Below, piece after piece: positions 3,512 to 62,992 of a stretch of DNA of 64,000 nucleotides; position 1 is the first letter of the stretch, and each line of letters starts with the position of its first letter. This DNA comes from Schmidtea polychroa (taxonomy: Eukaryota), in assembly GCA_044892525.1 (NCBI GenBank), contig CM097885.1:37758001-37822000 (forward strand). The letters are read 5' to 3'. The notes beneath the pieces are model-generated. The model saw only the letters and a program-made list of their open reading frames with translations. It made no database searches and had not been told where the DNA came from. A program made the position numbers and the translations under genes.

Positions 3512-3909
3512 CAAATTAGAAAATAACAATATTAAATTATAAGAAAGCACCACTTAAATATTAGTTTTACAATATATTTCGGTAGTTTTCCTGTCGTCAT
3601 CAGGTAGAATAGAATAACTAGATAAATTAGAGATTTTTGAATTTTTTTTTAGAGATTTTTTTATTAATTATATAATTTTTTAATAAAAAAATATTTTTTA
3701 AATTATAAAAATTATAATTTAAATAATAAATTTTTTTTAATTTGTAGAAAAAATATGGAGATTTTAAAATATTGAAATTTAAAATTTATTTAACGGGAAC
3801 TTTTTAACAATCCAATAAAATCAAGAGGGATGGAAGAAAAACATTTTATTCATAGTAATTGAAATCTTTAAATTTGCAATTTAGAAAACATTAATGAAAT
3901 TTATAATTT

Positions 3910-4560
3910 TTTAAAAATTACGTCTTTTAGATGCCGTTCTTTTGTACAAATGCATTCTTGAGATTCTTTATTGACCGCCGCAACATCTCAGCTGGGACAC
4001 TGTGAATTTCATCCTGAATTTGCAGTTTTAACTCATCCAGAGTTCTTGCTCGAGTTGTATACACTTGACTCTTGAGATAGCTCTACAATAAAAAATCACA
4101 AACGGATAAATTTTGGGCAAGGAAACTTTACCGAATCTTTAGATCACACAGTTATCTCACAATTATGGCGCAGCTTCCATTGATTGTCGTGCAAGATGTG
4201 ATGTTGCTCCATCCTGTTGAAACCAGGTTTCTTGAACGTGTGGAAAATTTCTCAATTCAGGTGTAACGAAGGATTGTAACGATCCTTATTAACAGTATCC
4301 CCTGTTCATTTTCAAAAAAATAAGGTCTAATGATTCCCTGTAATGAAACAGCGCCCCATACTGTCACCTTACTAGAGTGTAAAGGGCACCAATGAACTTC
4401 ATTAGGATTTTTGTCTGTCCAGTAACGGTAGTTCTGCTTATTCACGTAACCTGTGAGATGAAAATGGGCCTCATCTGACATCCACAACTTGCTTAGAAAT
4501 TCATCTTCCTTGTTTATGTTTGTTATCATTTGTTGACAGAATTCTAATACCAACACAAAT
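3910..4560 (-). pseudogene. Tc1/mariner-superfamily (DD37D-like) transposase remnant
   Basis: ORF 4257..4556 has WMSDEAHFHLTGYVNKQNYRYW...PLHSSKVTVWGAVSLQGIIRPYFFE; downstream frames give WFQQDGATSH and YLKSQVY...TLDELK; frameshifts and stops. Confidence 0.85.
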
Positions 4561-4855
4561 TTAGACTTATCAACCTTACACTCGTTATTTAATTTAACTT
4601 ATTATCTAACTCCCTTATATTAATAAAATCACACCCAGCTTTTCTCAGGCTTCGATCTTTAGGATTTTTAATAAATTTATCAACAGTCTCTTTTACTATA
4701 ATTAATAAAAAGGATTTTGAATAACCGTTCTTCATTAACAATTTAACCAATTTATATAACACTTTTTACTGAATTTACAAAGTAGAAGACAAAGATCATG
4801 AACGATAAATCAATCCCTTCACCATATTTCTCTTAATTTGAATTCACAAAATCTT

Positions 4856-7396: not shown

Positions 7397-8241
7397 CACC
7401 CGTCTGCACTGAATAAACGCGTCTATAATATGGGTTGGTGTGTACAACCCATATTATAGATGCGTCATAATTTGTGATGAAATGTATTCAGTTTTAGATG
7501 GATTTTCAAACAATTTCAATGTAATCATTTTGTATTTCTGATGAAATAGTTAATTTATGATTAACTATTTTAGCCATTTTAGAAATGGCTTTCAAGTAAT
7601 TTTTTTTTATTTAAAGTAAATTTAAAGATTTGAATTTTGATCCATATAGATATAAGATCATTATTCAAGCTCTTAAATATTACTTTTTATCAACAATTTT
7701 ATTATAAATTATGATTAAATTTCAAGGTTTTTAGGATTTTTATGAAATTTTATGAAGTTATTTTGAACTATTTCGATATAATGTAAGTCACATATATTTT
7801 TAACTATAAATAAATAAAGTAATTAGTCGAATTTTGTCATGTTCTATTAAAAAAACTAATATTAAATTTATTAAAAATTGAAGATAAATCTTACGAAATA
7901 ATCTCTTTATTATCTATACAACTCAAAGTTGAGTTTTCGGAATTTTCGTCAAAATTTTATCGGTCATTTTTTTCTAAAAATGTCTGTAAATGATTTATTA
8001 TAGTGCGTTTATTCATTACAACGATTCTACATATCGAAAATTTGCATGCACTTTTTACTATGTGTTGTGTTTGTGTGTGTCAGTTTATTTTTTCTACCAC
8101 TTTCTCACTTTCTATATTAAATGCGTTTATTCATTGCAACGCTAAAAATTAACACACAGGTAAGTTTGTATTTTTATATAATATATACGTATTGATTTTA
8201 TTTTTACATTATAAGATGCGTTTATTCAGTGCAAACGGGTG
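7397..8241. mobile_element. Tc1/mariner-type MITE, ~845 bp, TA target duplication
   Basis: ta|cacccgtctgcactgaataaacgcgtctataat ... attataagatgcgtttattcagtgcaaacgggtg|ta: ~33-bp TIRs with few mismatches; no ORF. Confidence 0.8.
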
Positions 8242-8244
8242 TAC

Positions 8245-8860
8245 TATAGAAATCTGAAAAGTGGAAGAAAAATTAAAAACTGCGCACAAACGCAACACAT
8301 ACTAAAAAAACACATACAAACTTTTGATTCGTAGAAATGCACCGCTGAGATACTTTCTATAGTAATTTTATTTTAGACAATTTTTAGAAAAAAAAGATCG
8401 CTGAAAAGTTTTAAAAATATATTTTTAATGAAAATATCAAGAGCAGATGAATTTGGTTCAATGTCTTTTCAATCCAGATTTGATTTCCTGAAAGAAGCCC
8501 TTCATATTGAGCTCAGAAAAAAAATTACAGAAATTTAAAAAAATTATTTTATTTATATTCGGCGATTTTTCTAAAATGTTTTAGAAAAATAATTATTTGT
8601 GGTGATTGATTGATTTATTTAATTATAATTAAAAATATATTTGACTCACATTTTTTCGAAATAATTCTAAAATAATTAAAAATAAATGTCATAAAATTCC
8701 AAAAATCTCTGAAAATTAAAAATAATATATAATTATACTGTTGACTAAAAGTAAAATTTAAGAACTTGAATAATGGATCTATATGGATCAAAATTCAAGA
8801 CTTAAAATTTACTTAAAATTAAATATCTTACCTGAAATCCATTTCTAAAATGGCTAAAAT
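8245..8860. repeat. Diverged inverted copy of ~7560-8115 (foldback arm)
   Basis: Reverse complements of 8245-8400 and 8720-8860 align by eye with 7950-8115 and 7565-7710 (e.g. attttagccattttagaaatgg; ttgaattttgatccatatagat). Confidence 0.75.
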
Positions 8861-9699
8861 AAATTTCCAAAATACATTCATGTAGAGCAATTCAGTAAAT
8901 GATAAATTCATAAATTGATAAAGATGATTAATTGATAAATTTGTGAGTGAATTGCTCTTCGCGCCAACCACCACTATAGAGAATGTATCTCAGTGGTGTT
9001 TGGTGTAGTATGTTGTGAGCCTGTAACACCAAAAGGAAAATACCACCCGCTCTAATAAGCATACCGTCCAACGACAGAGCAAGAAGGATATATTGAAAAG
9101 ATTTCACCCCCTTAAATATTGTTTTCTGACTTTACAGAAATTTTCGTGACGAATTTCAAAGATTTATAGCTCATTCGATTTGCAACAATCTCTTCTACAA
9201 AGCGCAGTCTAAATTAACTCTTATTAACCATGTATTTCTAACTAAATTGTCTACGAATTTCTGAATATTGCTTGAAAATAATAATGTACTAACTAAAATA
9301 CGTAAGAATTTGCTAAATGATACCCAAATAACAATTTTTTACTAAGAATTTATGAAATGTTACCCTAAATATTAATACATTTCTAACAAATATATAAATT
9401 GCTTATGAATTTGTTTAAGGATACTTCAAATGACAATGCATTTTTAATTAATATACTTAGATTGACCAAGGTTTTTATCAAGTATTTATACGTTGTCTAT
9501 GAATTTGCTAAGTATTACTGAAAACCTCCATATAAAGTACATTCTATTTGCAAACAATTCTTCTTCGGGTGTATTTCTTAAAGGTAGGTGTATTTATAAG
9601 AGAAATATTGAAAACAAATGTTTGATACACCATATTCAATAAAATATTGAATACATTATTGGGTTCGTACTCTACAAGAATTATTTTGGTGTCATTTTC

Positions 9700-15571: not shown

Positions 15572-15723
15572 AGTTAAATCCATCTTTAGATCCATCTTTA
15601 AATTTGCAGCAAAAATCTCGAAACTAACAATATATATTTAATCAAAGAATTTCTAAATAACAAGTTTTAATTAATTCGCAAAACCGCCAATTCCAAATTA
15701 TTTAAACAAACAGATATCTAACT
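15572..15723 (-). repeat. 3' LTR (AGTTA...TAACT)
   Basis: Identical to 20124-20275. Confidence 0.95.
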
Positions 15724-15734
15724 CTCCCCTTCTT
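15724..15734 (-). promoter_or_regulatory. Polypurine tract AAGAAGGGGAG
   Basis: Abuts the 3' LTR and overlaps the pol stop codon. Confidence 0.9.
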
Positions 15735-18700
15735 AAGAATTTTTCCACTTCTTCAGCCACTCGATTCTTCTTTCTTTCGTTCCTTCTTGTGAATGTAGTT
15801 CGACTCGATGAGGTGATAGAAATCTGGCGATTTTATATGGGCCATCGTATTGCATACCATCCTTGTGCCTGTTCTGCGGCTCTTTACGTACGAGTACCTC
15901 CTCCCCCACCTCGAAGACACGAGTGCCCCTCTTTGTCTTATCCATAGCTCTCATAGTGTCTGCGGCTTTACTCGAATTAAATCTCGCGTCTTCGATTCTT
16001 TCGCTTCTTGATATCTCGGCTTGTTTCAGGTTAGAGTGTAGGTTAACACTCCGTCCATAGATTATCTCAAATGGTGATAAACCTGTAGCACTTTGTCGAC
16101 TGCTATTTATAGTGAACTCTATTCTGGGTAGAAGTTCGTGCCAGTTTCTCTCTTCACATCCGCCTGCCAATGTTGCTGTAATAAGATCTCTTATCGTTCG
16201 TATGGCTCTTTCGGCTAAACCATTTGATTGGTGCTGATAAGGTGAGCTGAATTCCTGTTTGATTCCAAGTTTCTGTAGCTTCTGTCTTAGGAAATTCCCT
16301 TCGAAATTTCGGCCTCTATCTGTTAAAATGCTCTTCGGTTTTCCAAATCGATAGATCCAACTATTAAGTATTGTTTTGAAAATGGTCCCTTCGTCTTGCT
16401 TTGTGATTGCAGTTAAAGAAATCAGTTTGCTAAAACGGTCCACCATTACTACCATATATTTTTTCATGGCGTTTATTTCCATGTAAGCCACATCTAAAAC
16501 AATCTGTTCTAGGAATTCAGAGCTATATCTAGGAATAAATGTTTCCTTGGTTCTTGTCTGATCGATCTTTCTCTTAGCGCAGATCTCGCAACATCGTAAA
16601 CAGAGTTGGATTGTTTCTTGCATTTTCGGCCAATAAAATATCTTTTCCATATAATGAAATAATTTCTTAACTCCAATGTGACATAGTTCTTCATGTAGTG
16701 TTGTTGTTAACAGGCCTGCAAATGTTTCTGGGACTAACATTAAGATATTTTTGTTCTTTTCTACTGTTATTAATCCTCCATCAATTCGTGTATTTTTTAC
16801 GTTAAAAGGAAAACAATTCTTTTTCTCCCGTGTACATCCATTTTCCAATATCTCTCGCAGCTCTTGAAACCGAATGTCCTTTTGTTGTTGTTCCCATACT
16901 TTTTCCATAGCTTCTGTTCTTTGGATAGTATATATATATCTAATCTTTGATTTTCCTTGCTTAGCTTCTTCATGTCTTGTTTGACACTGGGTGCAAATCA
17001 TACTTTTTAATCTTGATAGTCCATCTGCATTCGAGTGTTCTTCTCCTTTCCGATATTTTAGTTCAAAATCATATTCCGACAGGTTAGCTAACCATGTTTG
17101 GAACTGCGGACTGATTGGCGTTTTTGTAGTGTTCATGAAAACCAATGCCTTGTGGTCGGTGCGAATTATGAATTTTTTTCCGTACAGATATTCTCTAAAA
17201 TGCATGACGTATTCATGTACGGCGAGCAGTTCTTTCCTGGTTACACAGTATCCCTTTTCATGTGATGACATATGTCTCGAGCCATAAGCTATGACAGATT
17301 CTTCTCCATCTTCTGTAATTTGACTCAAAACTGCACCAATGGCTCCAAAACTAGCGTCTGTGTCTAAGATAAAAGTCCTATCTTCTCTTGGAAAATCAAG
17401 GATAGGTGCTTCGCACAACCGTCTCTTCAGAGTTTGGAAGCTCTCATTGCATTCTTTAGTCCAATTTATATCTTTATCGCATCCAGATGTTGCAGCGTAT
17501 AATGGTTCGGCGATTTTGGCATAGTCTTTGATGAATCTTCTATAGTAGTTCGTTAATCCGAGAAACGATCTCAATTGTTTTGAACATTTTGGTACTTCTG
17601 CTTTCTCGATCTCTTCCACTTTCTTCCTGTTTGTCTGGATACCCTTCTCGTTAATTGTGTGACCAAGGAAACACAATTCTGTTTTATTGAATTTGCATTT
17701 TTCTGGATTTATCTTCAGTCCTGCCACTTGAATTCTTCTGAATATTTCCCTTAATAGCTCATCGTGGTCTTTTTGACTTTTACCATATACCAAGATATCA
17801 TCTAGATAAACTACTACTCCCTTGAATAGCATTCCTTCTAGCACTGTGTGCATCAGTCTCTGGAATGTCGCAGGAGCTGTTGCTAAGCCAAATGGTAGTC
17901 TATGGAAGCAAAATTGTCCTTCTCTTGTACTGAATGCAGTCATCTCTTGAATTTCTGGAGCTAACTCCACTTGATAATACGCCTGACCTAAATCGATTGA
18001 CGAAAATATTTTTGCATTCGCGAGACAGTCTAGTAAGAATTTGCTGTTAGGCATCGGAAATGACTCTTTTTCTGTTATGGAATTTAATCCACGATAATCT
18101 ACACACATCCTGATAGATCCATCTTTCTTCCCTACTATCACTAACGGGGCATTCCAAGGACTCTTGCAACACCGAATAACATTTGCTTTCATTAACTCTT
18201 TTATCAGTTCTTCAATCTTTTTCTCCATGTGCATTGGTTGACGTCGAGGATGTTGCATTATTGGGCCTCCTGTTATCCGCATCTCATGTCGAACTAAGTT
18301 TGTAAATCCCAGATCGAATTTCGATGCCATAAAAATTCCGCCGAATTCCCTGATCATTCCTTCAATATCTTTATTATTCTCACCTGCCATCGCCACTAGT
18401 GCTTTATTTATTCTTTCTTCATCAGTGTAAATTTTATTTATCAATGACGTTTCTATATTATTGATTTTCATTAACTTTACTCCAAACTCTTTCATTGTAT
18501 CAATGCCCCCTATGAATTCGGGTTTGATCTCTTTTACCACTACTACTGTGATCATTTTGGTCTTCTGATTCCACGTGGCCGGTATAGTCATGTATCCCAT
18601 TGCTTCTTCACCTCCAGTTGAAAAAACTCCGCACAATAATATCATACAACGTTTAAGTTCTGGTTTGCCTATTTTCTCCCACAAATTCTTGCTCATAACT

Positions 18701-18792
18701 GTTACTGATGCTCCAGAATCCCATAACATCTCTGTTTCGGCATTATTCAACATTATTTTACTCCAATTTCTTCCATCTTTCGTCTGGTACAT
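15733..18792 (-). CDS. pol: Pol polyprotein (aspartic protease, RT, RNase H, integrase); frame open upstream into gag end
   Basis: LWDSGAS protease; RMCVDYRGLN, LPFGL, VYLDD RT; LDTDAS...ELLA RNase H; H-H-C-C zinc motif, LDVA, TDRG, ERAI integrase; Ty3 domain order. Confidence 0.97.
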   Translation of the reverse strand: MYQTKDGRNWSKIMLNNAETEMLWDSGASVTVMSKNLWEKIGKPELKRCMILLCGVFSTGGEEAMGYMTIPATWNQKTKMITVVVVKEIKPEFIGGIDTMKEFGVKLMKINNIETSLINKIYTDEERINKALVAMAGENNKDIEGMIREFGGIFMASKFDLGFTNLVRHEMRITGGPIMQHPRRQPMHMEKKIEELIKELMKANVIRCCKSPWNAPLVIVGKKDGSIRMCVDYRGLNSITEKESFPMPNSKFLLDCLANAKIFSSIDLGQAYYQVELAPEIQEMTAFSTREGQFCFHRLPFGLATAPATFQRLMHTVLEGMLFKGVVVYLDDILVYGKSQKDHDELLREIFRRIQVAGLKINPEKCKFNKTELCFLGHTINEKGIQTNRKKVEEIEKAEVPKCSKQLRSFLGLTNYYRRFIKDYAKIAEPLYAATSGCDKDINWTKECNESFQTLKRRLCEAPILDFPREDRTFILDTDASFGAIGAVLSQITEDGEESVIAYGSRHMSSHEKGYCVTRKELLAVHEYVMHFREYLYGKKFIIRTDHKALVFMNTTKTPISPQFQTWLANLSEYDFELKYRKGEEHSNADGLSRLKSMICTQCQTRHEEAKQGKSKIRYIYTIQRTEAMEKVWEQQQKDIRFQELREILENGCTREKKNCFPFNVKNTRIDGGLITVEKNKNILMLVPETFAGLLTTTLHEELCHIGVKKLFHYMEKIFYWPKMQETIQLCLRCCEICAKRKIDQTRTKETFIPRYSSEFLEQIVLDVAYMEINAMKKYMVVMVDRFSKLISLTAITKQDEGTIFKTILNSWIYRFGKPKSILTDRGRNFEGNFLRQKLQKLGIKQEFSSPYQHQSNGLAERAIRTIRDLITATLAGGCEERNWHELLPRIEFTINSSRQSATGLSPFEIIYGRSVNLHSNLKQAEISRSERIEDARFNSSKAADTMRAMDKTKRGTRVFEVGEEVLVRKEPQNRHKDGMQYDGPYKIARFLSPHRVELHSQEGTKERRIEWLKKWKNS

Positions 18793-18839
18793 CTCTTCTT
18801 CTGCCTCGTCTCTTCGTTGTTCATTTCCTATTTCACAAT

Positions 18840-20147
18840 TTATTGTCTTGACTCCACCGACGAAATGAAACCCATGGAGTCGCTGATGTTTTTTCCGTCT
18901 TCTCTCAATATAGTATATTTCTCAGGGACATTGTATCTATCTTCCATATTGCTGTGATCCATTCTGAAATCCTGGCTGTTCTCGGTGTAATCTCTTGTTT
19001 CAGATTTTGAATCTTCTTCTTCTATGCACGCTATTCTTTGATATCGTTGTGGAACATCTTTCCGTAACGAAAAACAATCTCGGAACCCGTGTCCTTCCTT
19101 GCCACATATCAGACATTTATTTCCCAGTGGACACTCATACCTTCTATGTCCCCTTTCGCCACAGCAAAAACAATCACCTACCGTTAATTTTGGGACCGAT
19201 GCTTGTGGTAGTCCCCTACTTTCATTGTACAGCCTCCTTGCAATATTCTTCATGGATATTGTTGGCAGCTTCCTTTCTGAGCTATTCGGGATTCTCGCAT
19301 TTCTCAAGAATTGTTGTCTTGGAGATTGTTCTCGACGACCATGGTTATTTCCTTCGTATTGTATTGGTCCGCGTATAGGATGTTCGTCTCTTCTTGATCT
19401 GTGGTGACTAAATTGGTCCTCTGGTAGTCTTCTTTGTGATGATGTATGCATGGGATCTTGGGTATTCTTTTGAATTCTCATCTTCCCTCCCTCAGTCACG
19501 CTAGCGTATGTTCTTTGACCGATTGCTTTAATAAATTCTGTTTTATGGTTTCCATTTTTGTTACTTTCAAAAATTTTCGCCAATGATCTCGTTTCTTCAA
19601 TTTTTGTTTCTGGTTTCGTCAATAGTATCTCTCTCAGTCTCGCATCGCGTGCTTTATTTGCGATGAGATCTTGAACAATATCTTCTTCTGATCGTCCTGA
19701 ATTTATAACTTCAGCTAAAGCTTTCCTTAGCCGTATTTCAAAAGCTGCAAACCTTTCATCATCTTCCTGTTCCATAGCTGCCAATTCTCTGATTTTGTCA
19801 GTTATTGATTTTGTAATTGTGAACGTATTTAAGAACCACGCTTTGGCTTTTACATCTGTTGTTTCTGTTTCTCTGACGTTTCCCCACAATGTCTTTGCTT
19901 CTGCCACTAATAACACATCGAAAGTGCTTGTCAATCGCTGTCCATTTGTCAGCAACCATTCTTCTATATCCCTGATCCATTCTTCGGCTTCTTTTAAACC
20001 TCGTCCATCATATCGTCTGATGTTCAATGTGAGCATGTCTTGGCATGATTTCCGTAGGCATTCCATTAGCGATTTTGTCGATTTTGAAATGGCGTTGATA
20101 TTTTGATTTTCGGCGTGGTCGCCAGTTAAATCCATCTTTAGATCCAT
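18840..20147 (-). CDS. gag: Gag with two CCHC zinc knuckles
   Basis: 435 aa; CFCCGERGHRRYEC and CLICGKEGHGFRDC; RYDG...AEEWI capsid-type motif. Confidence 0.93.
   Translation of the reverse strand: MDLKMDLTGDHAENQNINAISKSTKSLMECLRKSCQDMLTLNIRRYDGRGLKEAEEWIRDIEEWLLTNGQRLTSTFDVLLVAEAKTLWGNVRETETTDVKAKAWFLNTFTITKSITDKIRELAAMEQEDDERFAAFEIRLRKALAEVINSGRSEEDIVQDLIANKARDARLREILLTKPETKIEETRSLAKIFESNKNGNHKTEFIKAIGQRTYASVTEGGKMRIQKNTQDPMHTSSQRRLPEDQFSHHRSRRDEHPIRGPIQYEGNNHGRREQSPRQQFLRNARIPNSSERKLPTISMKNIARRLYNESRGLPQASVPKLTVGDCFCCGERGHRRYECPLGNKCLICGKEGHGFRDCFSLRKDVPQRYQRIACIEEEDSKSETRDYTENSQDFRMDHSNMEDRYNVPEKYTILREDGKNISDSMGFISSVESRQ
20114..20124 (-). promoter_or_regulatory. Primer-binding site TGGCGACCACG (probably tRNA-Arg)
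   Basis: Directly at the 5' LTR end; complementary to a tRNA 3' end ...CGTGGTCG-CCA; tRNA identity is inference. Confidence 0.85.
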
Positions 20148-20275
20148 CTTTAAATTTGCAGCAAAAATCTCGAAACTAACAATATATATTTAATCAAAGA
20201 ATTTCTAAATAACAAGTTTTAATTAATTCGCAAAACCGCCAATTCCAAATTATTTAAACAAACAGATATCTAACT
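20124..20275 (-). repeat. 5' LTR (AGTTA...TAACT)
   Basis: Identical to 15572-15723. Confidence 0.95.
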
Positions 20276-20660
20276 ATTATATATATAAATTCAAATTTCT
20301 TCAAAAATAAAAAAATTTAATGTAACATCTACTTACACAATAGAAAATGTAAAGATAATAAAATTAATTTAATGACTTGGGTGAGCTTGCTTTTTAACAC
20401 ATAATTTGACGATATTTGAAGAAATTTATGTTAATTGTAGACGCATGACATTTTCTGCATCAAGTTTGTTTCTGTATTTTGTCTTCGTAGCAATGTAAAG
20501 AGAGAATAATCTCACGCAAAGATATGTTGTTGCGAAAGGCATTAATACTTTTACGGCTCGTTCGGAAATTTTCGGATATTCATTCAATAATTGAATCCAA
20601 AATGTAACAATTTCAACCTGGCGAATTGTAGTTTCTCATGTTGTGTCTGTAGATATGTGT

Positions 20661-20856
20661 CTCCAATCTCTTATTTTATAGTAAAAAGACCTTAAATTTT
20701 TACACTTTTAACTCATTTAGAGCCTTTATTTTGAACACAAATACCCATATGTTTTCTGCTTTAAACCCTATAAACATAAAGAAAATAGGAGAAGAGATGG
20801 AAATTCACAAACTCCAGGTAGGGTTGCGTGCATGTGGGTCTTATATCCACTACTTA
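20661..20856. repeat. Left TIR (outer ~49 bp missing)
   Basis: Reverse complement of 30641-30836 with 4 mismatches in 196 bp; weaker similarity continues inward to ~20910. Confidence 0.93.
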
Positions 20857-21407
20857 TAGCAAATCGCCAAGTTGGCAAATTGCTAACTAAAATTATAAAT
20901 ATTTTATAAATCTTAATCTTGATGTCTTGAAGAATAAAAAATTTTATGAAATAGTAAAACTGCTCTGAGAGGACAGTGGTATTTTTTTTTTTTTTTTTTT
21001 TTCACTGTCCTCTCAACAGTTTTTTTGATCCGGATCATTTTTTTATTCAACCTCTTTCGTTTATCGAATCTCTTCCAATATACAAGCTGGCCAGACTCAT
21101 ACATCAGAATCAATTCGATCTCGAAAGTACAAATGAATTCGAAAGCGAATCCGAAAGAGGTCCGAAAACAACTGAGAAAGGGATCGATCCGGGTGTGTTC
21201 GAAAGACTGGTGGCGATAATTACCGGTTCACCATCACACCCGTTTCAATAATTTTTTTTTCATATTTATGTTTAAAAATTAATTAATTAATAAAATAAAA
21301 TAAATAAAATAAAATAAATAAAATAAAATATACAACTACTTTATAAATCTAAGATACCCACACCATTTTCAATATTATTTTCAAATTTTTATTATTATTT
21401 TATGTTG

Positions 21408-21488
21408 AAAAAAAACTAACCTCAGATGTGATTTGAACCGCTATCTATTTGAACCACTGTGCCAGTCTAGCCCACTGCGCTATCAGGC
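21408..21488 (-). ncRNA. Candidate tRNA-like RNA polymerase III transcription unit
   Basis: A-box TAGCGCAGTGG at +7, B-box-like GGTTCAAATC (partly duplicated), T8 run downstream; not a canonical cloverleaf. Confidence 0.4.
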
Positions 21489-21518
21489 TTTGGATTTTTA
21501 TTTATAAAATTCTAAAAA

Positions 21519-21787: not shown

Positions 21788-23079
21788 ATGAATAATATAA
21801 ATCTCAAAATTCAAGAAAAAAATAAATTAAATCTTGATTATAATAAAGAATTTACTCATGAAATTAAAAAAATGATATTTTAAAAATCTCCCCAACTTCA
21901 GGATCTATTGCAAACTTAAATCGTAGGGGTGATATAGTTTTTCAATCTCTTCAAACATCAAACCCTATAGATATTTGTAATGCCAAATTATATTATAAAA
22001 TTGAATTAGAAATTGAAGCAAACAAAGATATAACCCTAGAAAATAATTTCTTTCCAAATTTATTCTCCAACATGAGATTAAAACTAGGATCATCAGAAAT
22101 TGAAACTGTTTTACATCCAGGAGTATATTCTACAATGTTAAATTTTATTTTAACTGGTTGTGATTATAAAAATGAATATGGTGAATTAACAGGCTGGATT
22201 CCTGACACTAATAAAGGGGATTTAGATAAAGATGGTTTAGATATAAATTATGGTTACCATAAAAGAGCTGAACTTTATAAATCTAAAAAATTTGAAGGTT
22301 ATTTTGAATTAAAACACTTATTTGGATTCCTTCAAAATTATAACCGTGTACTTCATAATGTTTTTATAGAATTCATCTGTAATAGACTAGAAGGTGATAA
22401 AAGATTGTTCTATGGAGCTGCAGATACAAAAGCTAAATTAAAATTATCAACACTTGAATTGCATATACCTGAATGGACATTAAACCCACATTCTGAAATC
22501 AAACTCCTTGAAAGATTAAATTCCAACAAGTCTATAAATGTAAATTATTTAAATAGAATCTGTAGTGAATTTAGTATGACAGAGGGTTCAACATATTCCA
22601 TAAAGGTAGCAAATTTAGCATACCGACCAAGATATATCTTGATTGGATTCAAAGAAGTAGATTCATCTTTCCAAAAAAAAACCAACTTGTTTATTCAAAA
22701 GATTGGAGATGATAATTTAAAAACAATCCAAATTCAATTAAATAGTTTTTATTATCCAATAAATAGAATGGAATTTAATATTGAAAATAATGAAAACATA
22801 TTCCCATATCTAAATTATATTGAAACATGTTATGATTTCAAAGTTGAACCACAATTAAGTTTAGAAGATTTCAAAAATTTATATTCTATATTTTGTATAA
22901 ATGTTTCAGACCAAGATGATCGCCTAGCCATAAATAATGTTGATGTTACACTTCATGTAACAAAGGATTCTAATTTTAAAACTAAAGTATATACATTAAC
23001 ATTAGAAGAAAAGAAAATAGAAATGAAATTATATGGTGGAAAGATTTCAATTATTGAAAATGTTAGGGGAGATTCTTAA
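21788..23079 (+). CDS. Major capsid protein (double jelly-roll), ~430 aa after correcting a 1-nt deletion in the A7 run at 21866-21872
   Basis: Motifs NNFFPNLFS, LKHLFGF, RPRYILIGF, LNSFYYP and DFKNLYSIFCINVSDQDDRL match my recollection of Polinton/adintovirus MCPs. The upstream frame (KISPTSGSIANLNRRGDIVF...) is continuous with ORF 22072. Confidence 0.82.
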
Positions 23080-23096
23080 TATTTTAACATTTTAAA

Positions 23097-23918
23097 ATGT
23101 CTTTAAATAAATATTGGAGATGCGAAACTTGTAATTGTCAAGTTACAAGACATCATAAAGCAAGTCATCTAAAAACTAAAAAACATACGAGAGTTGATAT
23201 TACAGGAGTCGATATTCCACGAGCTGGAGCCGACTTGCAATCTTCAAAAACAACATCTTCAATATTAAAACCTTTTACTACAGAAAAATATCCAGGTGAA
23301 AGACATTTATTTAAACACAACTATACCGGACCAGGAACAAGATTAGATATTAGATTAGATGAAACTAATAATCCTAAACAAGGATAAGAACCAATAAATA
23401 GAATTGATCAAGCAGCTTTAAAACATGATATTGCTTACAACTCAGAAGATCTTAGAGATAGACATGTGAATTTAATACATGATTTAAATAATATCCAAAA
23501 TCCATCAACACAAGAAAAGATTCAAAGAGCTCTAGTTAAATTAGCAATGAAAGGTAAGATTTTCATAGGCTTAGGACTTGGGCACCCCTTCCCTAGAATA
23601 GCAAAAGATGTTGCTAATAAAAAGATTATTGAACAAGCAGAGATTGAATCCAAGACTGATTCTTTTAATAGCTTATTAACCCCAACAGAATCACAAATAA
23701 AATATGCCAACGAATTACACCATGAATTTAGAAAAAATAAAAAATATTTAAAAGTTCAAGTACATGAAAAAGATCAAACATGGTCTGCAGATTTAGTCTT
23801 TATGCCAACCAAATCATCAGACCCTGAAAAATATAAAATAATTTTAACAGTAATAGATTTATATACACGATTTGCTTTTTTTCCGAGTATTGGTACCAGA
23901 TGGTGCTCAGAAGAATAA
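23097..23918 (+). pseudogene. Single frame: zinc finger + parvovirus-type PLA2 + N-terminal part of retroviral-type integrase; one internal TAA (23385-87); integrase truncated ~23885
   Basis: CETCNC...HLKTKKH; NYTGPGT...NRIDQAALKHDIAY (PLA2 Ca loop and HD catalytic motif); ANELHHEFRK...WSADLVFM...YKIILTVIDLYTRFAF (Polinton integrase first Asp). ORFs 23097 and 23466 are in the same frame. Confidence 0.85.
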
Positions 23919-25764: not shown

Positions 25765-28700
25765 TCAAGTATTGATTCTACTTAATTGAATTTTATTATA
25801 ATTAAATTCTTCATCAGTTAGACCTTCAGAATTGAACCCCTCAGTGTTGAAACATTTTTTCTCTATACATATTGAATTTTTAACTTGACAATATAAAGGT
25901 TTGTTATCAAGGTAATCGAATTGTGGTTCATAACATAGCTCTTCAGAATATATAATCTCAACATTATAAATATCAAGATCAGTAATCTTTAAGTTATAAA
26001 GTTCATTTATTTTTTCAAGATTTTTTATTATAGGGATTAAATCATTTCCAATTGGGAGAGTTTTTTTAAAATCACTTAGAATAAATCTTTTATCATCATA
26101 ATTTGATAGTGATATCTTTGCTGCTTCTTGTTGATACATATTATGCTTCTTAGATTTAAGTTGATGTACCTCTTCTATTTTATCTTGATGGTTTTCTTTT
26201 AGTGCATCTTTATAATCTTGGTGTGTGATTTTCTTAGATACTGATTTTTGTATACCTTTACATTTGTTATCGTTAAAGGTTTTTGTATCTGTCATTATTG
26301 GTCGTTCAAATGTATAATCTATTTCTTCCATTTCATTTGTTGTTGGATTTTTATACATAATTTTAATTGTTTGCTTTTCTGTTTTCGGCTTTTCTGTCAC
26401 TTCAAGTGAATATTGTTTAGGTCTAATAAATACTCCATCTAATATTGGGGTATTTGGTTTTTCATCTTTGAATGTGAATAATTCTCCAGATGAATTTATT
26501 AGTTTAGAAAGTATAGGATTTTCAGCTATTTCTTTTTTCACATCTTCACCATATATTTTAAAAAAGAAACTATCTGTATCCATTGCATGTAAGGATATTC
26601 TATCTCCAAAGTGTGGTACTAGAATATCATAATAGGCCTCATACATTTGTAGTTTAGAAAGTTCTAAAATAGTGAAGCCCATAAAGATTGGTTTATTATA
26701 AGTTTTTTCATTATTTTTATTTCAATTGCTACAAGGTTCTTTGAGAACACTTCTGCATTTTTAAATGTTGGTTTCCCAAGCATTCTATTATACCTTGCAA
26801 AGTCCTTTTGAGTATTTGTTAATAACTCTACTCGTGTGTATTTGTCCACGTTTTCCATTGTCTTTCCGAAGACTGCATTATTTAAAAGTTTGTATATCAC
26901 ATCAAGATAGATATTTCCAGCTCTTTTTGCTTCGTTTCGTTTCTTAATATTTCCTTCTATAAACTTTTTCATAAATGGTGCTTGTCTGAATTTTATAATA
27001 GAATGAATCTTCTTCAAACGCATTCCATGTGAAAGATAAAATTGAAAGAGTCTATAATGACAAAGATAATATTCTCTATCAGTTTGATCACATAAAAGTT
27101 TTATATTTGTTGCTATATGTTTTAAGATTTGCCAAGCTGAAAGTTCACTGATATTAATCTTTCTTTTTATAGGAGCAAGGGGGAGAAATCTAGTTCTAGA
27201 TTTTATTCTATCAGGGTACTCGAGATCACATTCTATAGCATATTCAACCTCTGAATCTTTAGGGGTTAATAGGATTTCTTTTATAAGATCATCTAGTTTT
27301 TCTTTTTCTTTAGGAATATTTACCCATGTGAAGTTTCCAATTGGTAAATATTCAGTCATTTTACCCCCATATAGAGCAGTTGCATCAGGATAAAATATTT
27401 CACATGGATCAGATAAACCTTCTGTTATTAATTTAGAGTCTTCTGGAGTTTTTATTTGTATATAGTCCGCATCTGTATCTTTAAAGAATTTTCTATAAAG
27501 AGTTAAGGAATTATTTGCAGTTATTTCTCTATCTCCCATTACAGAGGAAATACCTCCTCTAATATTATGTTTAAATATATTAAACATATCAAGATCGGTT
27601 AATAATTCTATAACTTTATCCCTATCCCTATCCCTATCCCTATCCTCTTCTTCAATCCATATATTATATAACATTATATCCCAAGCTAGAGCTGGCAGTG
27701 TTATATAATTATAAGGTTTTAATTCAAAGGCTTTACAAAAGGTTTCAAAGCAGTCTGCTAAAATATAAACATCAAGGGATAAATACATGTCGGTATATTC
27801 CCCAAGATTTTTACACTTGAATAATTCCCACATTTTATTTGCTCGAGAATATTCTTGATCTGTAATATTTGATTGTTGTAGTTTTGAAAAGAATGCTTCT
27901 TTCTCTGGTAATTTTGTTTCATTATATTTATCAAATGAATTCATGTAATCGTAGGGGTAGATTCCTTTTGCTAAACATGTTGGATATTCTTCTGGAGGAA
28001 TATTATATTTTATCAAAACATGCTCTGTTGTATATTTAAAATCTTCTGGTTTCATTGTTTTTGCTACTGCATCTAGAGACATTTGAAGAAAGTTTAGAGA
28101 ATCTATAAATTTTAAACAACCATATTGTACACATTTATATTTTTCTTTTGTTAAGCCGATAACCTTGAAAGAGTTTTTAGCATTTACTGCTAGAGCCTTT
28201 ATAAATAAATGTAAATCATATCCAAAAAGATTATGAAATATAACTGGTATAAATTTAGGAGTATGACAATTAAGATTACAATTTTTATGGGCTGCTCCTC
28301 GATAATTATTTTCACTTTTAAAATGATCATGATCAGGGACTTTTTTATTTGGAGATTGCTCTTGAGTTTGTAGTGCTTCATGAAGCATTCTTTGTTCTTC
28401 TTCTTCAATAATCTCAAGGAATTGGTTCATAGGGAGTGAAGTATCAGGGGTCGCGAAGCTCCCGGAGGTTGGATTCCCAGAGGTTGGATTCCCAGAGGTC
28501 GCGAAGCTCCCAGAGGTTGGATTCCCAAAGAGTTGATTCCCAAATGGTTGTTTACACATCCAACAATTTGAAGCATTTTTATATTCTCTCCATTGTTCAT
28601 TTGAAAATTTTATTTTATAATCTGTTTTTAATATTTTAAATAATTCATGTTCTAAATCATTTACACTTTTAACAAAATGATCTGAAACATCTTCTGAAGA

Positions 28701-30547
28701 AGTTCCTCTATATGAATATTCTTTAGATTCTATGAGTTCTGGGTAATTACTTTTAAAAAATAGTTTATAAGCTGATGGTATTTGTTTAGCAGTTCTTATT
28801 GTATAAGATTTTCTATTTTCCCATAGAAAGTTTTTCATAGTCTGCCATGTTGATACCTTTTGGGAATAATTATACCAAGAATCTAATAAATTATTTTTTT
28901 CTATTATTTTTAAATATTCTTTTTCTAAATCATGTTCTATATTTACTGCTTCAAAGTCACCATATATTACTCCCAATGATTCTAATAAATTTGAATAATT
29001 TTTAAAGTTCATGTCTGTGTTTGTAGGCATTTTAATTAAAGCTGGTTGGTTTTTCTCACATAATCTTTCATGTTTAATTATAGAGTTTTTTGTTGTAGAA
29101 TAATGAAGACATCTTTTACATGTTATACCCCCTCTAGCTAATGTTTTTGTGCGCATAAAACTTTGAAAGTTTTTTATTAAAATATAATGTTGATTCCTTT
29201 CTAGGTTTTCTAGGTTCTGCTCGTCCTCTCCTTCATCACCCTTTCCAACGGACACTCCATACCCTTCCTCTTCATCTAACCCTGACTCAAATAGTCCTGG
29301 ATCTTCTTCATCTTCTTGTTGAAGATTTAAATCTTGCTCATTTTCATCTTCATCTTCATTATAAACATAACCTTGATTAAACTCTCTTTGATCAACATTA
29401 TTAAATTCTTCTAATATTAAAAGATCTATTTCTCTATTTTTATCTTGTTCAAATAGTATTTTATTTGAAATATAAATTGGAATAATATGTTTTAAATCAT
29501 CTTTATCTGGGGCATATTCATAAATATTAAGTTTAATATTATTTAAAATTTCAAATGCTGGAATGTCTTCAATTTTCATTGGATGTTTAAATCCTTTTGG
29601 ATATATTAATTCGTTTTCATATTGTTTATATTTAGAAACCCTTTGGGGATTCTTTGCTTGAGGATGTAGTTGAGCAAGTATTGACCATTGAAAACATTTG
29701 TTATCACTATTCTGTACATTTATAACATAGTTGGAGTCAAATGGTGTACGGATAAAAGATTTGGGATTTGGGGGTGCTGCTCTCCAATATTCAATTTCCA
29801 TAGATTGGAAAGAATGAAATCTTAAATTTGATTCTCCTAATTCTTGTTCTACTTGTTCTTGTTGTTCTTCCATCTCTTTACATAAATCTTTATTGGTTTT
29901 ATTTATTCCTTTTGCTGAGAATAAATATTTAAAAGATGTTTCAACACTAGAATCTAAGGGGGTTGTGTCTGCTTCTTCTCCTCTCCAATATTTTGTAGAG
30001 ATTTTTACATTTTTTATTTTATAATGTTGAATCTTGATCGACCAAAAATTCTTATAGCATCATCCATTGAATTTTTTATGTTTTGTTTATTTTCTCTTAT
30101 ATACTCTGAGATTGTGGAGGAAAACATTTGTTCTCCAAATACATCTATGTGATGGAAGTTATCCCAATTATATTTTTCTTTTTCAATATGTTCAGGTTCT
30201 TCTTCAGAATCTTCTTCTTCACAATCAGAATCTCTTTTAGGTATTGGTTGGTTGTTCTTTATAGCACATTTTTTTACATGTTTTAAATAATAAGATTTTA
30301 TATTAAATTTTGATTTACATATAGAACATTCAAATTTTTCTCTATTTTTAGGAACTCCAATACAACTTTCAAAATGTTTATCATATCCTGAAAGTAGATA
30401 TCTAACTTTACATTTGGTACAAATTTTTGAGTTTGAATTATCAAGTCTATTTGTTTTTAATAAATGAGCTTTTGATTTTTGATGAGATAATAGAGCAGTT
30501 CTATTTTTAAAATTTTTTTGACAAACATCGCAATTATAAATATTCAT
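25765..30547 (-). CDS. Protein-primed DNA polymerase B (~1590 aa) with N-terminal zinc fingers, split by two 1-nt frameshifts (~30045 and A5 at 26714-18)
   Basis: ExoI YGDFE, ExoII FHNLFGYD, ExoIII YLSLDV; motif A DATALYG, B KLLNNAVFGK, C MDTDS; Endonuclease VII-like CWMC...DHDH...GAAHKNCN; INVQNSDNKCFQWSILAQLHP. Joins ORFs 30014..30547, 26664..29873 and 25765..26682. Confidence 0.92.
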
Positions 30548-30640
30548 TTTTTAAAAAAATTTTTTTATTGGATACTATGTTTTCATATTTATAAAATATT
30601 TATATTTACCAACTTGGCAGCTTGCCAATCGGTACTTTGC

Positions 30641-30885
30641 TAAGTAGTGGATATAAGACCCACATGCACGCAACCCCACATGGAGATTGTGAATTTCCAT
30701 CTCTTCTCCTATTTTCTTTATGTTTATAGGGTTTAAAGCAGAAAACATATGGGTATTTGTGTTCAAAATAAAGGCTCTAAGTGAGTTAAAAGTGTAAAAA
30801 TTTAAGGTCTTTTTACTATAAAATAAGAGATTGGAGGCCACTTTTCCAGAGGGGTTGTGTGCATGTGGGTCTTACATCCACTACT
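30641..30885. repeat. Right TIR (complete, ends CCACTACT); contains its own 35-bp inverted ends
   Basis: 30643-30677 and 30851-30885 are reverse complements with 2 mismatches. Confidence 0.93.
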
Positions 30886-31357
30886 GTCTGTAGATATGTG
30901 TCTATCAGCTGCTCTCTTTCTTTAATTGATAATGTCTCTGCATTACTAGATTCAACAAACGGACTTTGCACCCAACTAAAAATGTATGTTTTAGGAGGAA
31001 AATATTCCAAAAATAATTTTGTAATCCAGATAAATGTTCCAAAATATGCTTTTTCGCATTTTGGTCGAGTATGGACTTTTAAAGTGGAAGTTAAAGTGGA
31101 TAGTATTGGGTAGCATAATAGTGGGATATTGATAACAGTGTGAGTCAATGACAATCAGGGTTGAAAACAGTGGAAACGAATAACGTATTTTTAGATCTAT
31201 GCTATTTTGTCTCTTAGACCAAGGTTATTAGTATGCTCCTATCAAATATATGAAAAGCCTATGAACTTGTTACTGCTTTATGAAGCGAAAATAAAAATTG
31301 AGATCATGTTCACTTCTACTGAGATTGTTGTTGGACATTATAGTTTAAATACTATAT

Positions 31358-32343
31358 CAACGGTGGGCAAATGCGGCTCTTAGAGCCGCATGCGGCTCTT
31401 CGTTGAGTAAACTGCGGCTCATTGATAATTGAATTCTTGATAATCGAATTCGATTTTTTATTTTGAAATTTTTCACTAAATGTTTTGAGAAAAAATTTGC
31501 AAACATTAAATTTGGCTTTACAAGGAAAAGAAAAGATAATTATTGATTTGTCACAAACGTTATTTAGTTTTGAAGCTAAACTTCGGCTTTTTGTGAACGA
31601 TCTTAGGTCGAAAATATTTAATCATTTTCCACGAATAAAAGCTAATATAATTGATATTACAGAAGAAAAAGTAAACGAATACAGTGAAAAATTGGAAGAA
31701 TTTTAAATGTAGGTTTGAAGATTTGAAAAGTTATAAATCTACATTTGCATTTTTTGTGAACCCATTTATTTGTGATATTATTGAAGATGGATTTCCAATT
31801 TCTGAAGTAATACTTGTTAAAAAAGCGGTTGGGGAATTGGAGTTATTAGATATGAAAGAGGACCAGGCTTTGCAAATGCACCATAAATCTACTTCTATAG
31901 TTGAATTTTGGAAACTCGTACCAGAGGCAAAATATCCACACTTAAAACAAGCTGCTTGCCGTCTAATTTCAATTTTTAGTACAACATATTGTTGTGAATC
32001 TTTGTACTCCACAATGAAGTTCGTAAAGTCGAAATATCGTTCACAGTTGACCAATCAGCATCTTACAGAATTGCTGCGAACAGCTTTAACAAAGTATACA
32101 CCAAATTTCAAAGATTTGACCAAAAGTCTTCGTTAATTCAAGAAATTTTATTACTTTTTATTAATGGATTTTTATGTTTGTTACTTAATGTTTGAAATAA
32201 TTATTTTGTTTTTTTTTAATAGCGTTTAAGTCTCTTTAATCAAATTAATGAAATAAAAAAAATATGTACTTTACTATGGTGGCTCTGTAAAAAATAAATT
32301 TTCGGAAAATGGCTCTTATTGAACCCATGCGTGCCCACCCTTG
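31358..32343 (+). mobile_element. Internally deleted hAT element (GTF2IRD2/SPIN-like), 986 bp, TSD TACTATAT
   Basis: TIRs caacggtgggca / tgcccacccttg; identical 8-bp flanks (31350-57, 32344-51); ORFs 31485..32136 encode the hAT C-terminus (FWKLVPEAKYPHLK...STTYCCESLYSTMKFVKSKYRSQLT). Confidence 0.9.
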
Positions 32344-59024: not shown

Positions 59025-60873
59025 TTAATATTGAAATTCTTTAGATTGGAAACCAGTTAATTTTATCAAACACACGATGATGGTAATTACTAAAATATAT
59101 CTAAAATTCTTAAGGTTTTCCACGGTTTTACCGTATAAACTGTTGTTCTTTAACTTAAAATAATCTCGCTGAAATGAATCTGTACTAGCTGCTCTCATTT
59201 GAGTATTGTAATCAATATAGCCTCTGAAAATAGCTACTTGCTTGAATTCTACAGCTCGATTGACTTTTGTGACTTTTGCGCCGTAACTCAACCATTCAGT
59301 CAAAACTCTACTATTAATCACATAATTGGTCTTTGGTTCGTATGTTAATAACAACTTTTCAACTTTACTTCCAGGCGGATAACAAAGCTCAAGAGCTATA
59401 GGTAAATCATCTAGTTTATCCTGTATACTATATGGAATGACGATATCAACCTCCAAAACATATCCACGATCTCCATCAAACTCATCTCCATTCATAAATC
59501 TTTTAATAATACTATCCATTACAGTCTGATCTTTTAACCATCTAAATTCACCAACAGGAAGTTTTTGCGACAGAGTCCATCCATATAAATTATTAACATC
59601 TTGGTATGACATTTGTGTGAATTCATCAGCTTCAACACGGTGTTTGTTGATAAATGTCATTCCACCACGAATACCAGCTTCAAATAAACGGTAAAGCTCT
59701 GGATCTTGAATAAGTTCTATCGGTTCAGCTAATTGTTTAATAGCTGATGCCCAACTTAATCCAGGCATGGAAACAAACGACAGAGCCTCAAGTCCATCTT
59801 TGTCAAATGTTTTTTCTCTGAAAGCCTCAAAAATATCTGCTAATAGAAAACATCCAACTTCAAATATACTAGCATGTAATCTAGCAACGTCTCACAGTTA
59901 TATTGTTGCCAGATTTGATTTGCATGTATATAATCTTCTTGACTAACTCCCTCCCAAATCGGTGGTAATTCTGTTATTGACTGTAAAACATCCATTGACG
60001 TAGCCATATCATAAGGAAAAATGTTTTTACTAGTCATCATCTGTGATTCGAAAACATCTGAGGTCAGTGGAAGACGTGGCAAGTTTTTTGATAAATTTGC
60101 CAAGCTGCTATTTAAAAATTGTAAAGAATCAATAAATCTAATTCTTCTGCTTTCGATGTCGCTGTAAGTGTGAGAAACTTTTCTGTTGATTGAGGAATAA
60201 CAATTAAATTCCAATCGGGGAATTTTCCAATTGTATATTTTAATATATGATGAATGTCATATCCACGAAGATTATGAAATACAACAGGTAAAGACGGATT
60301 GATTCTTCTAGCCAAGTTGCAATCTTGACATGCTGCTCCGAGATATTGACCAGTAAAATGATCATGATCTCGAACAGGTATATTGATAATCTTTTTACAA
60401 AGGTAGCAATGAGTTTCAGTCGTGAATTCTTCCTGCTGTTCCCAACTGAGTTCCATCATTTCCTTTGATCCATTAATTTTATACCACGGATAAACTATGT
60501 CTGTAGCTATATCATCCAATGCTTGTATAAACTGAATGATACAGTTTTTCCCAACAAATGTTTCATTTCGGATCGGACAACCTTGATGAAGAAGCACAAA
60601 TTCAGATGCAATCGGCTCATGTTTTTGGAAGTGCTTGTCATTTAGAGGTAATATCGATTCAAAGTCCGCGTAGACAACAAACTGCTGTTTTATAGTTTTA
60701 TTCCAGTCTTTAAATTCGATATATTTATTCTCTGACATTGAGTATAGAGTCGTCCGCCTCACATTCTTCCTACAAAGACCTATATGTCTTTCAAAAGCAG
60801 GACGTTTTCGAAACCCATGAAGACATGTATGACACCATTGTGATTGTGATTGTGATTGTGACCGTCTATACAC
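59025..60873 (-). pseudogene. Second, diverged protein-primed PolB fragment (Polinton type), frameshifted, truncated after motif B
   Basis: YADFES, DHDHFTGQYLGAACQDCN, VFHNLRGYD, FIDSLQFL, YLKLDV, GIRGG, DVNNLYG, KLKNNSLYGKT. Confidence 0.88.
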
Positions 60874-61718
60874 CGAAACTGTTTACAAGTGCATCCATAA
60901 ATCTTTAGCATTTTTTAACTTGTAATAGTGCAAAATTTTCGTTTTACAGATGTCTAACATTAAAATAATATAAACATTACAAGCTTTGTGATACCCTAGT
61001 ATTATTAATAGTATTATCATTATTTTTCAATAACCTGAAATGTTAACATTTCCAACCATTAAATCAAATCTGCCTTAAAATATAACCCTTAAAATAACCT
61101 TTCTAACACTTAGAAGAAAACTTTCAACGTAAACCAACGTTATCATTAAAGTTTAACCCTTAAACAAACCTTTTGTACCTAAATCAATCTTACCTTTAAA
61201 TTCTTATCCTTAAATCGACTTTTTGACCGTTAAATCAAGATTTAACCCTAAAATGACTATATATAGACTTTAATGACCTTAAATTAACTTCACTGACCGC
61301 TAACGTCATTATTACAGTTATTTAAAACAATAATTTTTTATTCATCTCTACTTATTTTATTTAATAAAACCGCGATGAATGCATATTTTCAATACAATTC
61401 TTTATTTCCTGTTTACTTTTAATATTTCGTTTATCTTCATTACAATTATGGATCAACAATTTATTTTCTTACCTAACACAATTTTTAGCACTGCCTTTTA
61501 CTTTTCTACATTTTTGATCTAAAGTTATAAAAAATTCGAATTTTAATTCAAAGCACTTTTAAATTCGTAAAACATACTTTGCTTAATCTCTATCATCACA
61601 ATTATTATTATCAACATTATTATCAACATTATTATCAGTTATGGAAAGTTGTTTGTTTTAATAATATTCGATTTAGCGTTATTTTAAAAAATATATTTTA
61701 ATTGCATTTATTGATTTT

Positions 61719-62966: not shown

Positions 62967-62992
62967 TCAGTAGAAAGTAGCGAAATGAAGAC

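What the first reader, a model, noticed from the sequence alone, without database searches (positions are those of the whole stretch)
30643..30885. The TIR is itself a 243-bp mini-element with AGTAGT...ACTACT ends
A 35-bp terminal motif (AGTAGTGGAT(A/G)TAAGACCCACATGCAC(G/A)CAACCCC) occurs at the true end and again inverted ~210 bp inside. The left TIR retains the inner copy (ending 20854). So each arm can fold into a panhandle and carries two opposed origin/att-like ends, and the gene core resembles a composite transposon flanked by two mini-elements. Possible roles are hairpin-assisted or flip-flop replication, release of mini-replicons, or independent mobilisation as a MITE.
Basis: partly seen in the sequence, partly recalled or inferred. 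Interest (0 to 1): 0.7.

Follow-up and report, generated by a model that had tools for sequence, protein, structure and literature searches.

The report
Fold-back ends of a Polinton
The end of this virus-like jumping element carries a second, mirror-image copy of its own tip about 200 bases inside, a layout also seen in one distant relative but missing or at best weak in three others, which may give the element a built-in fold-back start point for copying its DNA.

Summary
The 243-bp right arm (30643-30885) of a 10.2-kb degraded Polinton/Maverick starts and ends with inverted copies of one 35-bp AGTAGT motif (33/35 alike; fold z -9.2). The left arm keeps the inner copy and lacks its outer 49-51 bp. 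It is not a one-off: public contigs hold a whole ~90%-identical unit with another outer flank, and a distant Polinton-like contig (L012, capsid 30% identical) has the same layout with its own sequence (150-bp unit, perfect 21-bp ends). Three other loci with Polinton-type tips show no clear inner copy (one has a weak match). The composite-transposon reading fails: the unit has no target duplication of its own, and left/right likeness runs ~60 bp past the inner copy. Solo MITEs are neither shown nor excluded. Best reading: a lineage-restricted self-complementary arm that folds into a local panhandle origin for terminal-protein priming (architecture ~0.85, function ~0.4). Rivals: captured mini-element without function (0.3), parvovirus-like self-priming (0.15). 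Nearest precedent: short terminal palindromes in Halocafeteria virophages/PLVs. New variant of a known kind.

The parts
30643..30885 (.). Right arm: 243-bp self-complementary terminal unit
   Evidence: a whole diverged unit in public contig X3 record 16
30643..30677 (+). Inner, outward-reading copy of the 35-bp AGTAGT terminal motif
   Evidence: 33/35 to the outer copy
30851..30885 (-). Outer copy of the motif = true right end of the Polinton
   Evidence: depth falls from repeat level to single-copy level across 30885 and contigs end or turn away there
20663..20854 (.). Left arm, inverted: inner 192 bp of the unit; outer 49-51 bp missing
   Evidence: 188/192 identical; no fold
20820..20854 (-). 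Inner motif copy of the left arm
   Evidence: 34/35
20855..20911 (.). Diverged inward extension of the TIR, left
   Evidence: 45/64 columns; 0 of 500 shuffles
30587..30642 (.). Diverged inward extension of the TIR, right
20644..20662 (+). 19-bp direct repeat, left copy (long target duplication; last 2 bases also fit the arm)
30885..30903 (+). 19-bp direct repeat, right copy (first base shared with the element end)
21868..23079 (+). Double jelly-roll major capsid reading frame
   Evidence: PF21738 E 1.9e-23; 27 homologues
23097..23918 (+). PLA2-like/rve integrase gene, interrupted by a stop and cut short
   Evidence: PF00665 E 0.009, under the cut-off; 43% to residues 6-219 of the 441-aa PLA2-like+rve frame of L004, E 6e-52
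25765..30547 (-). Protein-primed PolB in three frames (zinc-finger head 30014-30547, body 26664-30059, tail 25765-26721)
   Evidence: PF03175 E 1e-7; all three pieces match one frame of L003

Best explanation
The unit is an integral, lineage-restricted part of the TIR of a Polinton/Maverick family: each full arm ends in a 150-250 bp cassette bracketed by inverted copies of the terminal origin/attachment motif. SHOWN: the anatomy, its recurrence in other copies, the same layout in a distant relative, and the ability to fold. INFERRED: when a strand is excised or displaced during copying, its last 243 bases snap back so that the 3' tip pairs with the inner copy, giving a ~35-bp duplex origin without the two ends of a 10-20 kb strand having to meet; the element's terminal-protein-primed PolB starts there, displaces the inner copy and runs through the loop into the core. 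A predicted by-product is initiation at the outward-reading inner copy, giving arm-sized molecules that could integrate as solo mini-elements. The clipped left arm with a 19-bp duplication is read as host repair at a hairpin-prone end (inference).
For: Fold z -9.2. X3 record 16 spans 30641-30885 with 23 other letters and 2 gaps and has a different outer flank. X1 record 7 is a third arm-plus-interior junction, and X5 depth at 30639 is 144.8 against 18.4 on the unique flank. L012 (capsid 30% identical; ATPase, pX-like) has AGTAGT at 16, a perfect 21-bp inverted copy ending at 165, fold z -10.8, no duplication round the unit, and an older 81% tandem copy of the inner motif with its interior join. 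Among the 19 shown differences of the X3 unit none lies in the terminal 30 bp of either motif copy (chance 0.005 if uniform, but biased, see against). The PolB N-terminus keeps the nearly invariant Ser and the Cys of the NxDNKCF motif, in keeping with the terminal-protein and vOTU domains described in PMC11071308 (passages). Panhandle origins on displaced strands are the standing model for adenovirus and PRD1 (PMC11886824, passages).
Against: No functional data. Only one relative shows the layout, at one end, with 15 nt of flank; its place in the capsid tree is unsupported, so convergence is possible. L039 and L028, with Polinton-type tips, lack an inner copy and L041 has only a weak 14/15 match, so Polintons do not need it; the full TIR could already form a more stable long-range panhandle. 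Identity drops from 98% to about 70% exactly at the inner motif, which suits a recently added cassette. In run X1 the arm has depth about 3,600-4,700 but the inner flank only 49, so most arms there are not joined to this interior. 4 of the 23 X3 differences and 149 table rows were not shown, and rows near contig ends are suppressed. PMC11886824 notes that direct evidence for panhandles is lacking even in PRD1/adenovirus. That the aligned Ser is the linking residue is my inference.
Confidence: 0.42

Rival explanations
1. End capture without function: a miniature non-autonomous derivative of the same Polinton landed in the old TIR of one copy, was mirrored to the other end by panhandle repair, and its outer tip became the new end. 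The hairpin is a by-product; the ~60-bp diverged extension is what is left of the older TIR.
Against: It must have happened twice (window family and L012) with different sequences; in L012 an 81% tandem copy includes the inner motif and its join to the interior, so that join is old. The main arm contig in X1 (depth 2764.6) is no deeper than neighbouring gene contigs (3023.2, 3222.8), and the X3 unit ends on the same two bases that follow the inner motif in both window arms: no sign of a large solo family, though depths are no copy numbers.
Confidence: 0.3
2. Self-priming hairpin: the 3' tip folds onto the inner copy and primes synthesis of the core directly, as in parvovirus rolling-hairpin replication and as proposed for Halocafeteria virophages/PLVs; resolution at the inner junction would flip the arm.
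For: The geometry puts a paired 3' end next to the core as template. Precedent: 10.64898/2026.07.28.741278 section 7; AAV flip/flop model in PMC11575299 (passages).
Against: The element encodes a protein-primed PolB with its N-terminal motifs in place, whereas the Halocafeteria palindromes go mainly with non-pPolB elements. No Rep/HUH family was hit in 11 frames of this element or 20 frames of L003, L004 and L012 (the contigs are partial). Three of three inner junctions have the same arm orientation; 0 of 9 listed joints change strand.
Confidence: 0.15
3. Composite transposon: two independent mini-elements inserted on either side of a gene core and mobilised it.
For: Two inverted units bracket the core; four usable-looking ends in an intact layout.
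Against: No 4-8 bp duplication round the right unit or the L012 unit; both units join homologous interior at the same position; the core is the Polinton's own gene set.
Confidence: 0.05
4. One-off duplication or assembly artefact.
For: The window is an assembly with gaps elsewhere; no listed contig bridges this exact right junction.
Against: Whole unit in an independent study's contig, outer 49 bp covered in several runs, same layout in L012.
Confidence: 0.02

Closest known systems
Polinton/Maverick elements (animal, alpha-adintovirus-like with PLA2-like gene)
   Same: pPolB, rve integrase, double jelly-roll capsid, TIRs; TIR length inside the 100-1500 bp range given in 10.1101/2023.08.22.554363 (passages); PLA2-like gene as described in 10.1101/697771 (passages). 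AG...CT microsatellite tips are recalled from Kapitonov & Jurka 2006, which is not held.
   Different: TIR contains an inverted second copy of its own tip; this copy is 10.2 kb, has no detectable ATPase, penton or protease, and has a 19-bp instead of a 5-8 bp duplication.
Terminal palindromes of Halocafeteria seosinensis endogenous virophages (subtypes 1, 2, 5, 6) and PLV subtype 4 (10.64898/2026.07.28.741278; section 7 read, methods passage seen)
   Same: Self-complementary sequence at the TIR extremity next to the target duplication; hairpin role in replication proposed.
   Different: Those are short palindromes (52 nt in subtype 5; screened with a gap limit of 10) mostly in non-pPolB elements of a protist; here two whole origin-type motifs are separated by a 108-173 nt loop in a pPolB-encoding, animal-type element.
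Adenovirus/PRD1 ITR panhandle (PMC11886824, passages)
   Same: Duplex origin rebuilt on a displaced single strand for terminal-protein priming.
   Different: There the two genome ends anneal; here one arm can do it alone.
Streptomyces telomeres (PMC13685816, passages)
   Same: A 250-300 nt terminal single strand with fold-back structure serves terminal-protein priming.
   Different: Streptomyces patches ends after internal-origin replication with Tap/Tpg and multiple short palindromes; no homology is claimed.
AAV/parvovirus hairpin ITR (PMC11575299, passages)
   Same: 3' end can fold back with the genome core as template.
   Different: No Rep nickase found, no flip/flop seen, large unpaired loop instead of a T-shaped hairpin.
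MITEs and bacterial-type composite transposons
   Same: Short unit with inverted ends; two copies bracket genes.
   Different: No own target duplication; shared interior junction; solo copies unproven.

Membership tests
Polinton/Maverick | Protein-primed family B polymerase | tested here: met
   PF03175 E 1e-7; 38-49% to L003 PolB; in three frames in this copy
Polinton/Maverick | rve integrase | tested here: met
   PF00665 E 0.009, under cut-off, but E 6e-52 to the L004 frame that scores PF00665 5.8e-13; cut short here
Polinton/Maverick | TIRs of 100-1500 bp | tested here: met
   253-column inverted match, 92%; left arm clipped
Polinton/Maverick | 5-8 bp target duplication | tested here: inconclusive
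   19-bp direct repeat at a damaged left end; other insertion sites could not be paired
Polinton/Maverick | Double jelly-roll capsid gene (typical) | tested here: met
   PF21738 E 1.9e-23
Autonomous, complete Polinton | Packaging ATPase, penton, protease; 13-25 kb | tested here: not met
   No hit in the window for these frames of L003, L004, L012 (1 of 17 correctly translated queries hit, the integrase); 10.2 kb. Filed as a deleted copy, not an autonomous one
MITE | Short, non-coding, inverted ends | tested here: met
   243 bp, 33/35 ends; no Rfam match near a gathering score
MITE | Own target duplication at this site | tested here: not met
   Flanks differ at 4-8 bp; same in L012
MITE | Many solo copies in the genome | tested here: inconclusive
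   No genome held; contig depths point both ways
Composite transposon | Two independently inserted elements round unrelated cargo | tested here: not met
   Homologous interior from the junction on both sides; cargo is the element's own gene set
Parvovirus-type rolling-hairpin end | Self-complementary 3' end | tested here: met
Parvovirus-type rolling-hairpin end | Flip and flop orientations | tested here: inconclusive
   3 of 3 inner junctions alike, 0 of 9 listed joints change strand; too few
Parvovirus-type rolling-hairpin end | Rep/HUH nickase | tested here: not met
   No such Pfam hit in 11 element frames and 20 frames of three partial relatives
Protein-primed panhandle origin | Initiation on the folded end | not testable with these tools
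   Needs observation of replication intermediates

The most novel reading that the evidence does not exclude
A clade of animal Polintons has evolved arms that are complete mini-replicons: each arm holds two opposed origin/attachment motifs, folds into its own origin, and can be copied out as a 150-250 nt protein-capped unit that integrates alone and can re-end other elements. This would be a built-in source of Polinton MITEs and defective-interfering-like molecules, and a replication mode distinct from the end-to-end racket model.
Probability: 0.25. Interest if true: 0.78.

Novelty: new variant of a known kind. Interest (0 to 1): 0.55.

Why it matters
How Polintons replicate has been modelled from sequence (end-to-end annealing, then protein priming) and, by my recall, not observed. 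An inverted second origin motif inside the TIR, seen in two families whose capsids are 30% identical, makes sharp predictions that can be checked in existing assemblies and long reads: constraint on the inner copy, fixed or flipping orientation, arm-sized solo copies. It also links to the 2026 report of terminal palindromes in protist virophages/PLVs, whose screen (gap limit 10) would have missed long-loop forms like this one, so the feature may be under-counted.

Tried and rejected
Whole genome not held, so no scan for solo units or paired target duplications. Motif scans: viral contigs 1 hit, L001, a chance match inside a tailed-phage terminase-like gene; metagenome contigs 0; spaced two-end patterns gave 0 hits and 2 hits in tailed-phage-like contigs, L054 and L055, rejected. 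Capsid queries found nothing in viral contigs or prokaryote genomes. Of 96 locus ends (L002-L049, 1.2 kb each) 3 had an inverted repeat above the script's threshold; only L012's starts at an AGTAGT tip; most of these ends are fragments, not true termini. Four further ends (L050-L053) showed no such layout; 13 of 17 records asked for were not held and one stretch was not cut out. The X3 outer flank is not in the window. Rfam: no match near a gathering score for either arm; no tRNA by ARAGORN. The depth dip at 30563-30613 was not used: the tool skips a repeat at 30542-30572. Run X3 held only 0.07 of the words and is used only for the laid contig. RPS11 search did not name the host beyond 69-77% identity to many animal proteins. 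No earlier finding matched the arm by sequence or words. Literature searches turned up no description of a long-loop inverted tip in Polinton TIRs; Repbase/Dfam entries, Kapitonov & Jurka 2006 and bioRxiv supplements could not be seen and may hold one. Passages of PMC6431247, PMC11296320 and 10.1101/2025.02.07.637071 said nothing on it.

Full report
Setting. Between 20663 and 30885 lies a 10.2-kb degraded Polinton/Maverick: double jelly-roll capsid frame (PF21738), an interrupted and shortened PLA2-like/rve integrase gene, and a protein-primed PolB in three frames whose pieces all match one frame of relative L003. ATPase, penton and protease frames of relatives find nothing in the window. Whether the PolB splits are lesions, introns or sequence errors was not tested; earlier notes report spliced PolB leaders in other families of this genome.

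Observation. The right arm 30643-30885 begins and ends with inverted copies of a 35-bp motif, 33/35 alike, with worn pairing to about 70 bp. It folds far better than shuffles on both strands (z -9.2 and -8.8); the best of 258 control tiles reaches 23 bp. The left arm is the inner 192 bp of the same unit, inverted, 188/192 identical; it lacks the outer 49-51 bp and does not fold. Left/right likeness goes on for about 60 bp inside the inner motif at about 70% (45/64 columns, 0 of 500 shuffles; the next block is at chance, 204 of 500). So the TIR is the unit plus a worn extension, and the identity step falls on the inner motif. The unit has no duplication of 4-8 bp round it. The element as a whole is bracketed by a 19-bp direct repeat that abuts the clipped left arm with a 2-base overlap; 0 of 2898 random flank pairs share 19 bases. 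I read this as repair at the left end during or after insertion; its first six bases would fit an ordinary 6-bp duplication. This is inference.

Other copies. No genome is held, so I laid contigs of 4 of the 8 listed runs (3 studies) on 29900-31400. The unique right flank has depth 145 (X4), 18.4 (X5) and 46.9 (X1); the arm is tens to hundreds of times deeper, and depth falls across 30885. X3 record 16 covers the whole unit (30641-30885; 23 other letters, 2 gaps) and leaves at 30885 into a flank that is not in the window. X4 record 23 also turns away after 30885; X5 records 30 and 31 stop there. The inner join recurs: X1 record 7 runs from the arm into a diverged interior, and X5 has depth 144.8 at 30639. 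Against a constant join, X1 has only 49.3 at 30639 while the arm has about 3,600-4,700; there most arms meet other sequence, which may be a diverged core or host flanks. The deepest single arm contig in X1 (2764.6) is about as deep as gene contigs next to it (3023.2, 3222.8), which shows no great surplus of arms, but the tool warns that these sums are no copy numbers. None of the 19 shown X3 differences lies in the terminal 30 bases of either motif copy (0.005 if uniform), but 4 differences are hidden and rows near contig ends are suppressed, so this is only a hint. None of the 9 listed joints changes strand. Three of the four left/right differences in the window are common variants in these runs, and at the fourth (30781) the right arm differs from all laid depth.

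Relatives. A capsid alignment found 21 metagenome loci. One reaches an end: L012, with capsid 30% identical, A32-type ATPase and pX-like genes. It has 15 bases of flank, then AGTAGT at 16, and a perfect 21-bp inverted copy of this tip ending at 165; the 150-bp unit folds at z -10.8, has no duplication round it, and is followed by an 81% tandem copy of the inner motif with its join to the interior. Only a short core of the motif is shared with the window (12 of 16 columns). Its place in the capsid tree is unsupported, and neither PolB nor the other end is on the contig. A PolB alignment found 27 viral-collection loci. Judged by eye, three have Polinton-type tips: L039 and L028 have no inner copy, L041 has a 14/15 match at 599-613 (E 0.28). 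The layout is therefore shared by at least two families and is not universal.

Mechanism. A single strand ending in this arm can pair its 3' tip with the inner copy. That gives either a duplex origin for a terminal protein or a self-priming 3' end with the core as template. The PolB N-terminus keeps the nearly invariant Ser and the NxDNKCF Cys of its relatives, matching the terminal-protein and vOTU domains that PMC11071308 describes (passages); no Rep/HUH family was hit in 11 element frames or 20 frames of three partial relatives; and the three inner junctions seen share one orientation. I therefore favour a local panhandle for protein priming (0.42), a short-range form of the adenovirus/PRD1 model (PMC11886824, passages), with a loose parallel in Streptomyces fold-back ends (PMC13685816, passages). 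The main rival (0.3) is capture of a miniature derivative at the old end, mirrored by panhandle repair, with the hairpin as a by-product; the identity step and the X1 depths speak for it, the second case in L012 and its old inner join against. Origin by capture and later use do not exclude each other. Parvovirus-like self-priming (0.15; PMC11575299, passages) remains open. Two independent insertions round a core (0.05) and artefact (0.02) are rejected.

What is known. Terminal palindromes with a proposed hairpin-priming role were reported in 2026 for Halocafeteria virophages and one PLV subtype, mostly without pPolB, found with a gap limit of 10 (10.64898/2026.07.28.741278; section 7 read; methods passage). 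Nine searches of the held library showed no report of a long-loop inverted tip in pPolB-encoding Polinton TIRs; subscription papers, repeat databases and preprint supplements were out of reach. The AG...CT tip rule is recalled, not read.

Verdict. A real structural variant of the Polinton TIR, seen in two families, with an untested function. New variant of a known kind; interest 0.55.

Noticed in passing
window 15572-20275: Gypsy-type LTR retrotransposon with two 152-bp repeats 100% identical and open gag and pol frames, about 370 bp left of the Polinton; looks very young.
   Followed up: partly
window 59025-60882: Fragments of a second, different Polinton-type PolB (PF03175 E 8.5e-14; Endonuclease_7-like piece).
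   Followed up: partly
window 61677-64000: A second Gypsy family, about 67-75% alike to the first, running off the window end.
   Followed up: no
window 21420-21495 (-): Stretch with what look like Pol III A- and B-box motifs (recalled) in the non-coding left part of the Polinton; no ARAGORN or Rfam call, fold z 0.4. Similar units were noted in another family of this genome (e1-7879910).
   Followed up: partly
window 20956-21023 and 21190-21242: Two hairpins inside the left end of the Polinton: a 14-bp stem round a T run (z -6.4) and a GC-rich stem followed by a T run (z -2.7).
   Followed up: partly
window 7566-7818 and 8614-8861: 255-bp inverted repeat pair, 81% alike, bracketing about 1.3 kb: another TIR element.
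   Followed up: no
window 31328-32136: hAT transposase tail (PF05699); the repeat starts near 31328, where laid depth jumps more than a thousandfold in X4 and X1.
   Followed up: no
L004 4586-5191: 201-aa frame beside the integrase with a pattern that I recall as HNH-endonuclease-like; no Pfam hit at E 0.01.
   Followed up: no
L041 1-613: Weak 14/15 inverted match to the tip about 600 bp inside; may be chance or a worn form of the same layout.
   Followed up: partly
L055 6000-6158: 19-bp perfect inverted repeat in an intergenic region of a tailed-phage-like contig; unrelated to Polintons.
   Followed up: no
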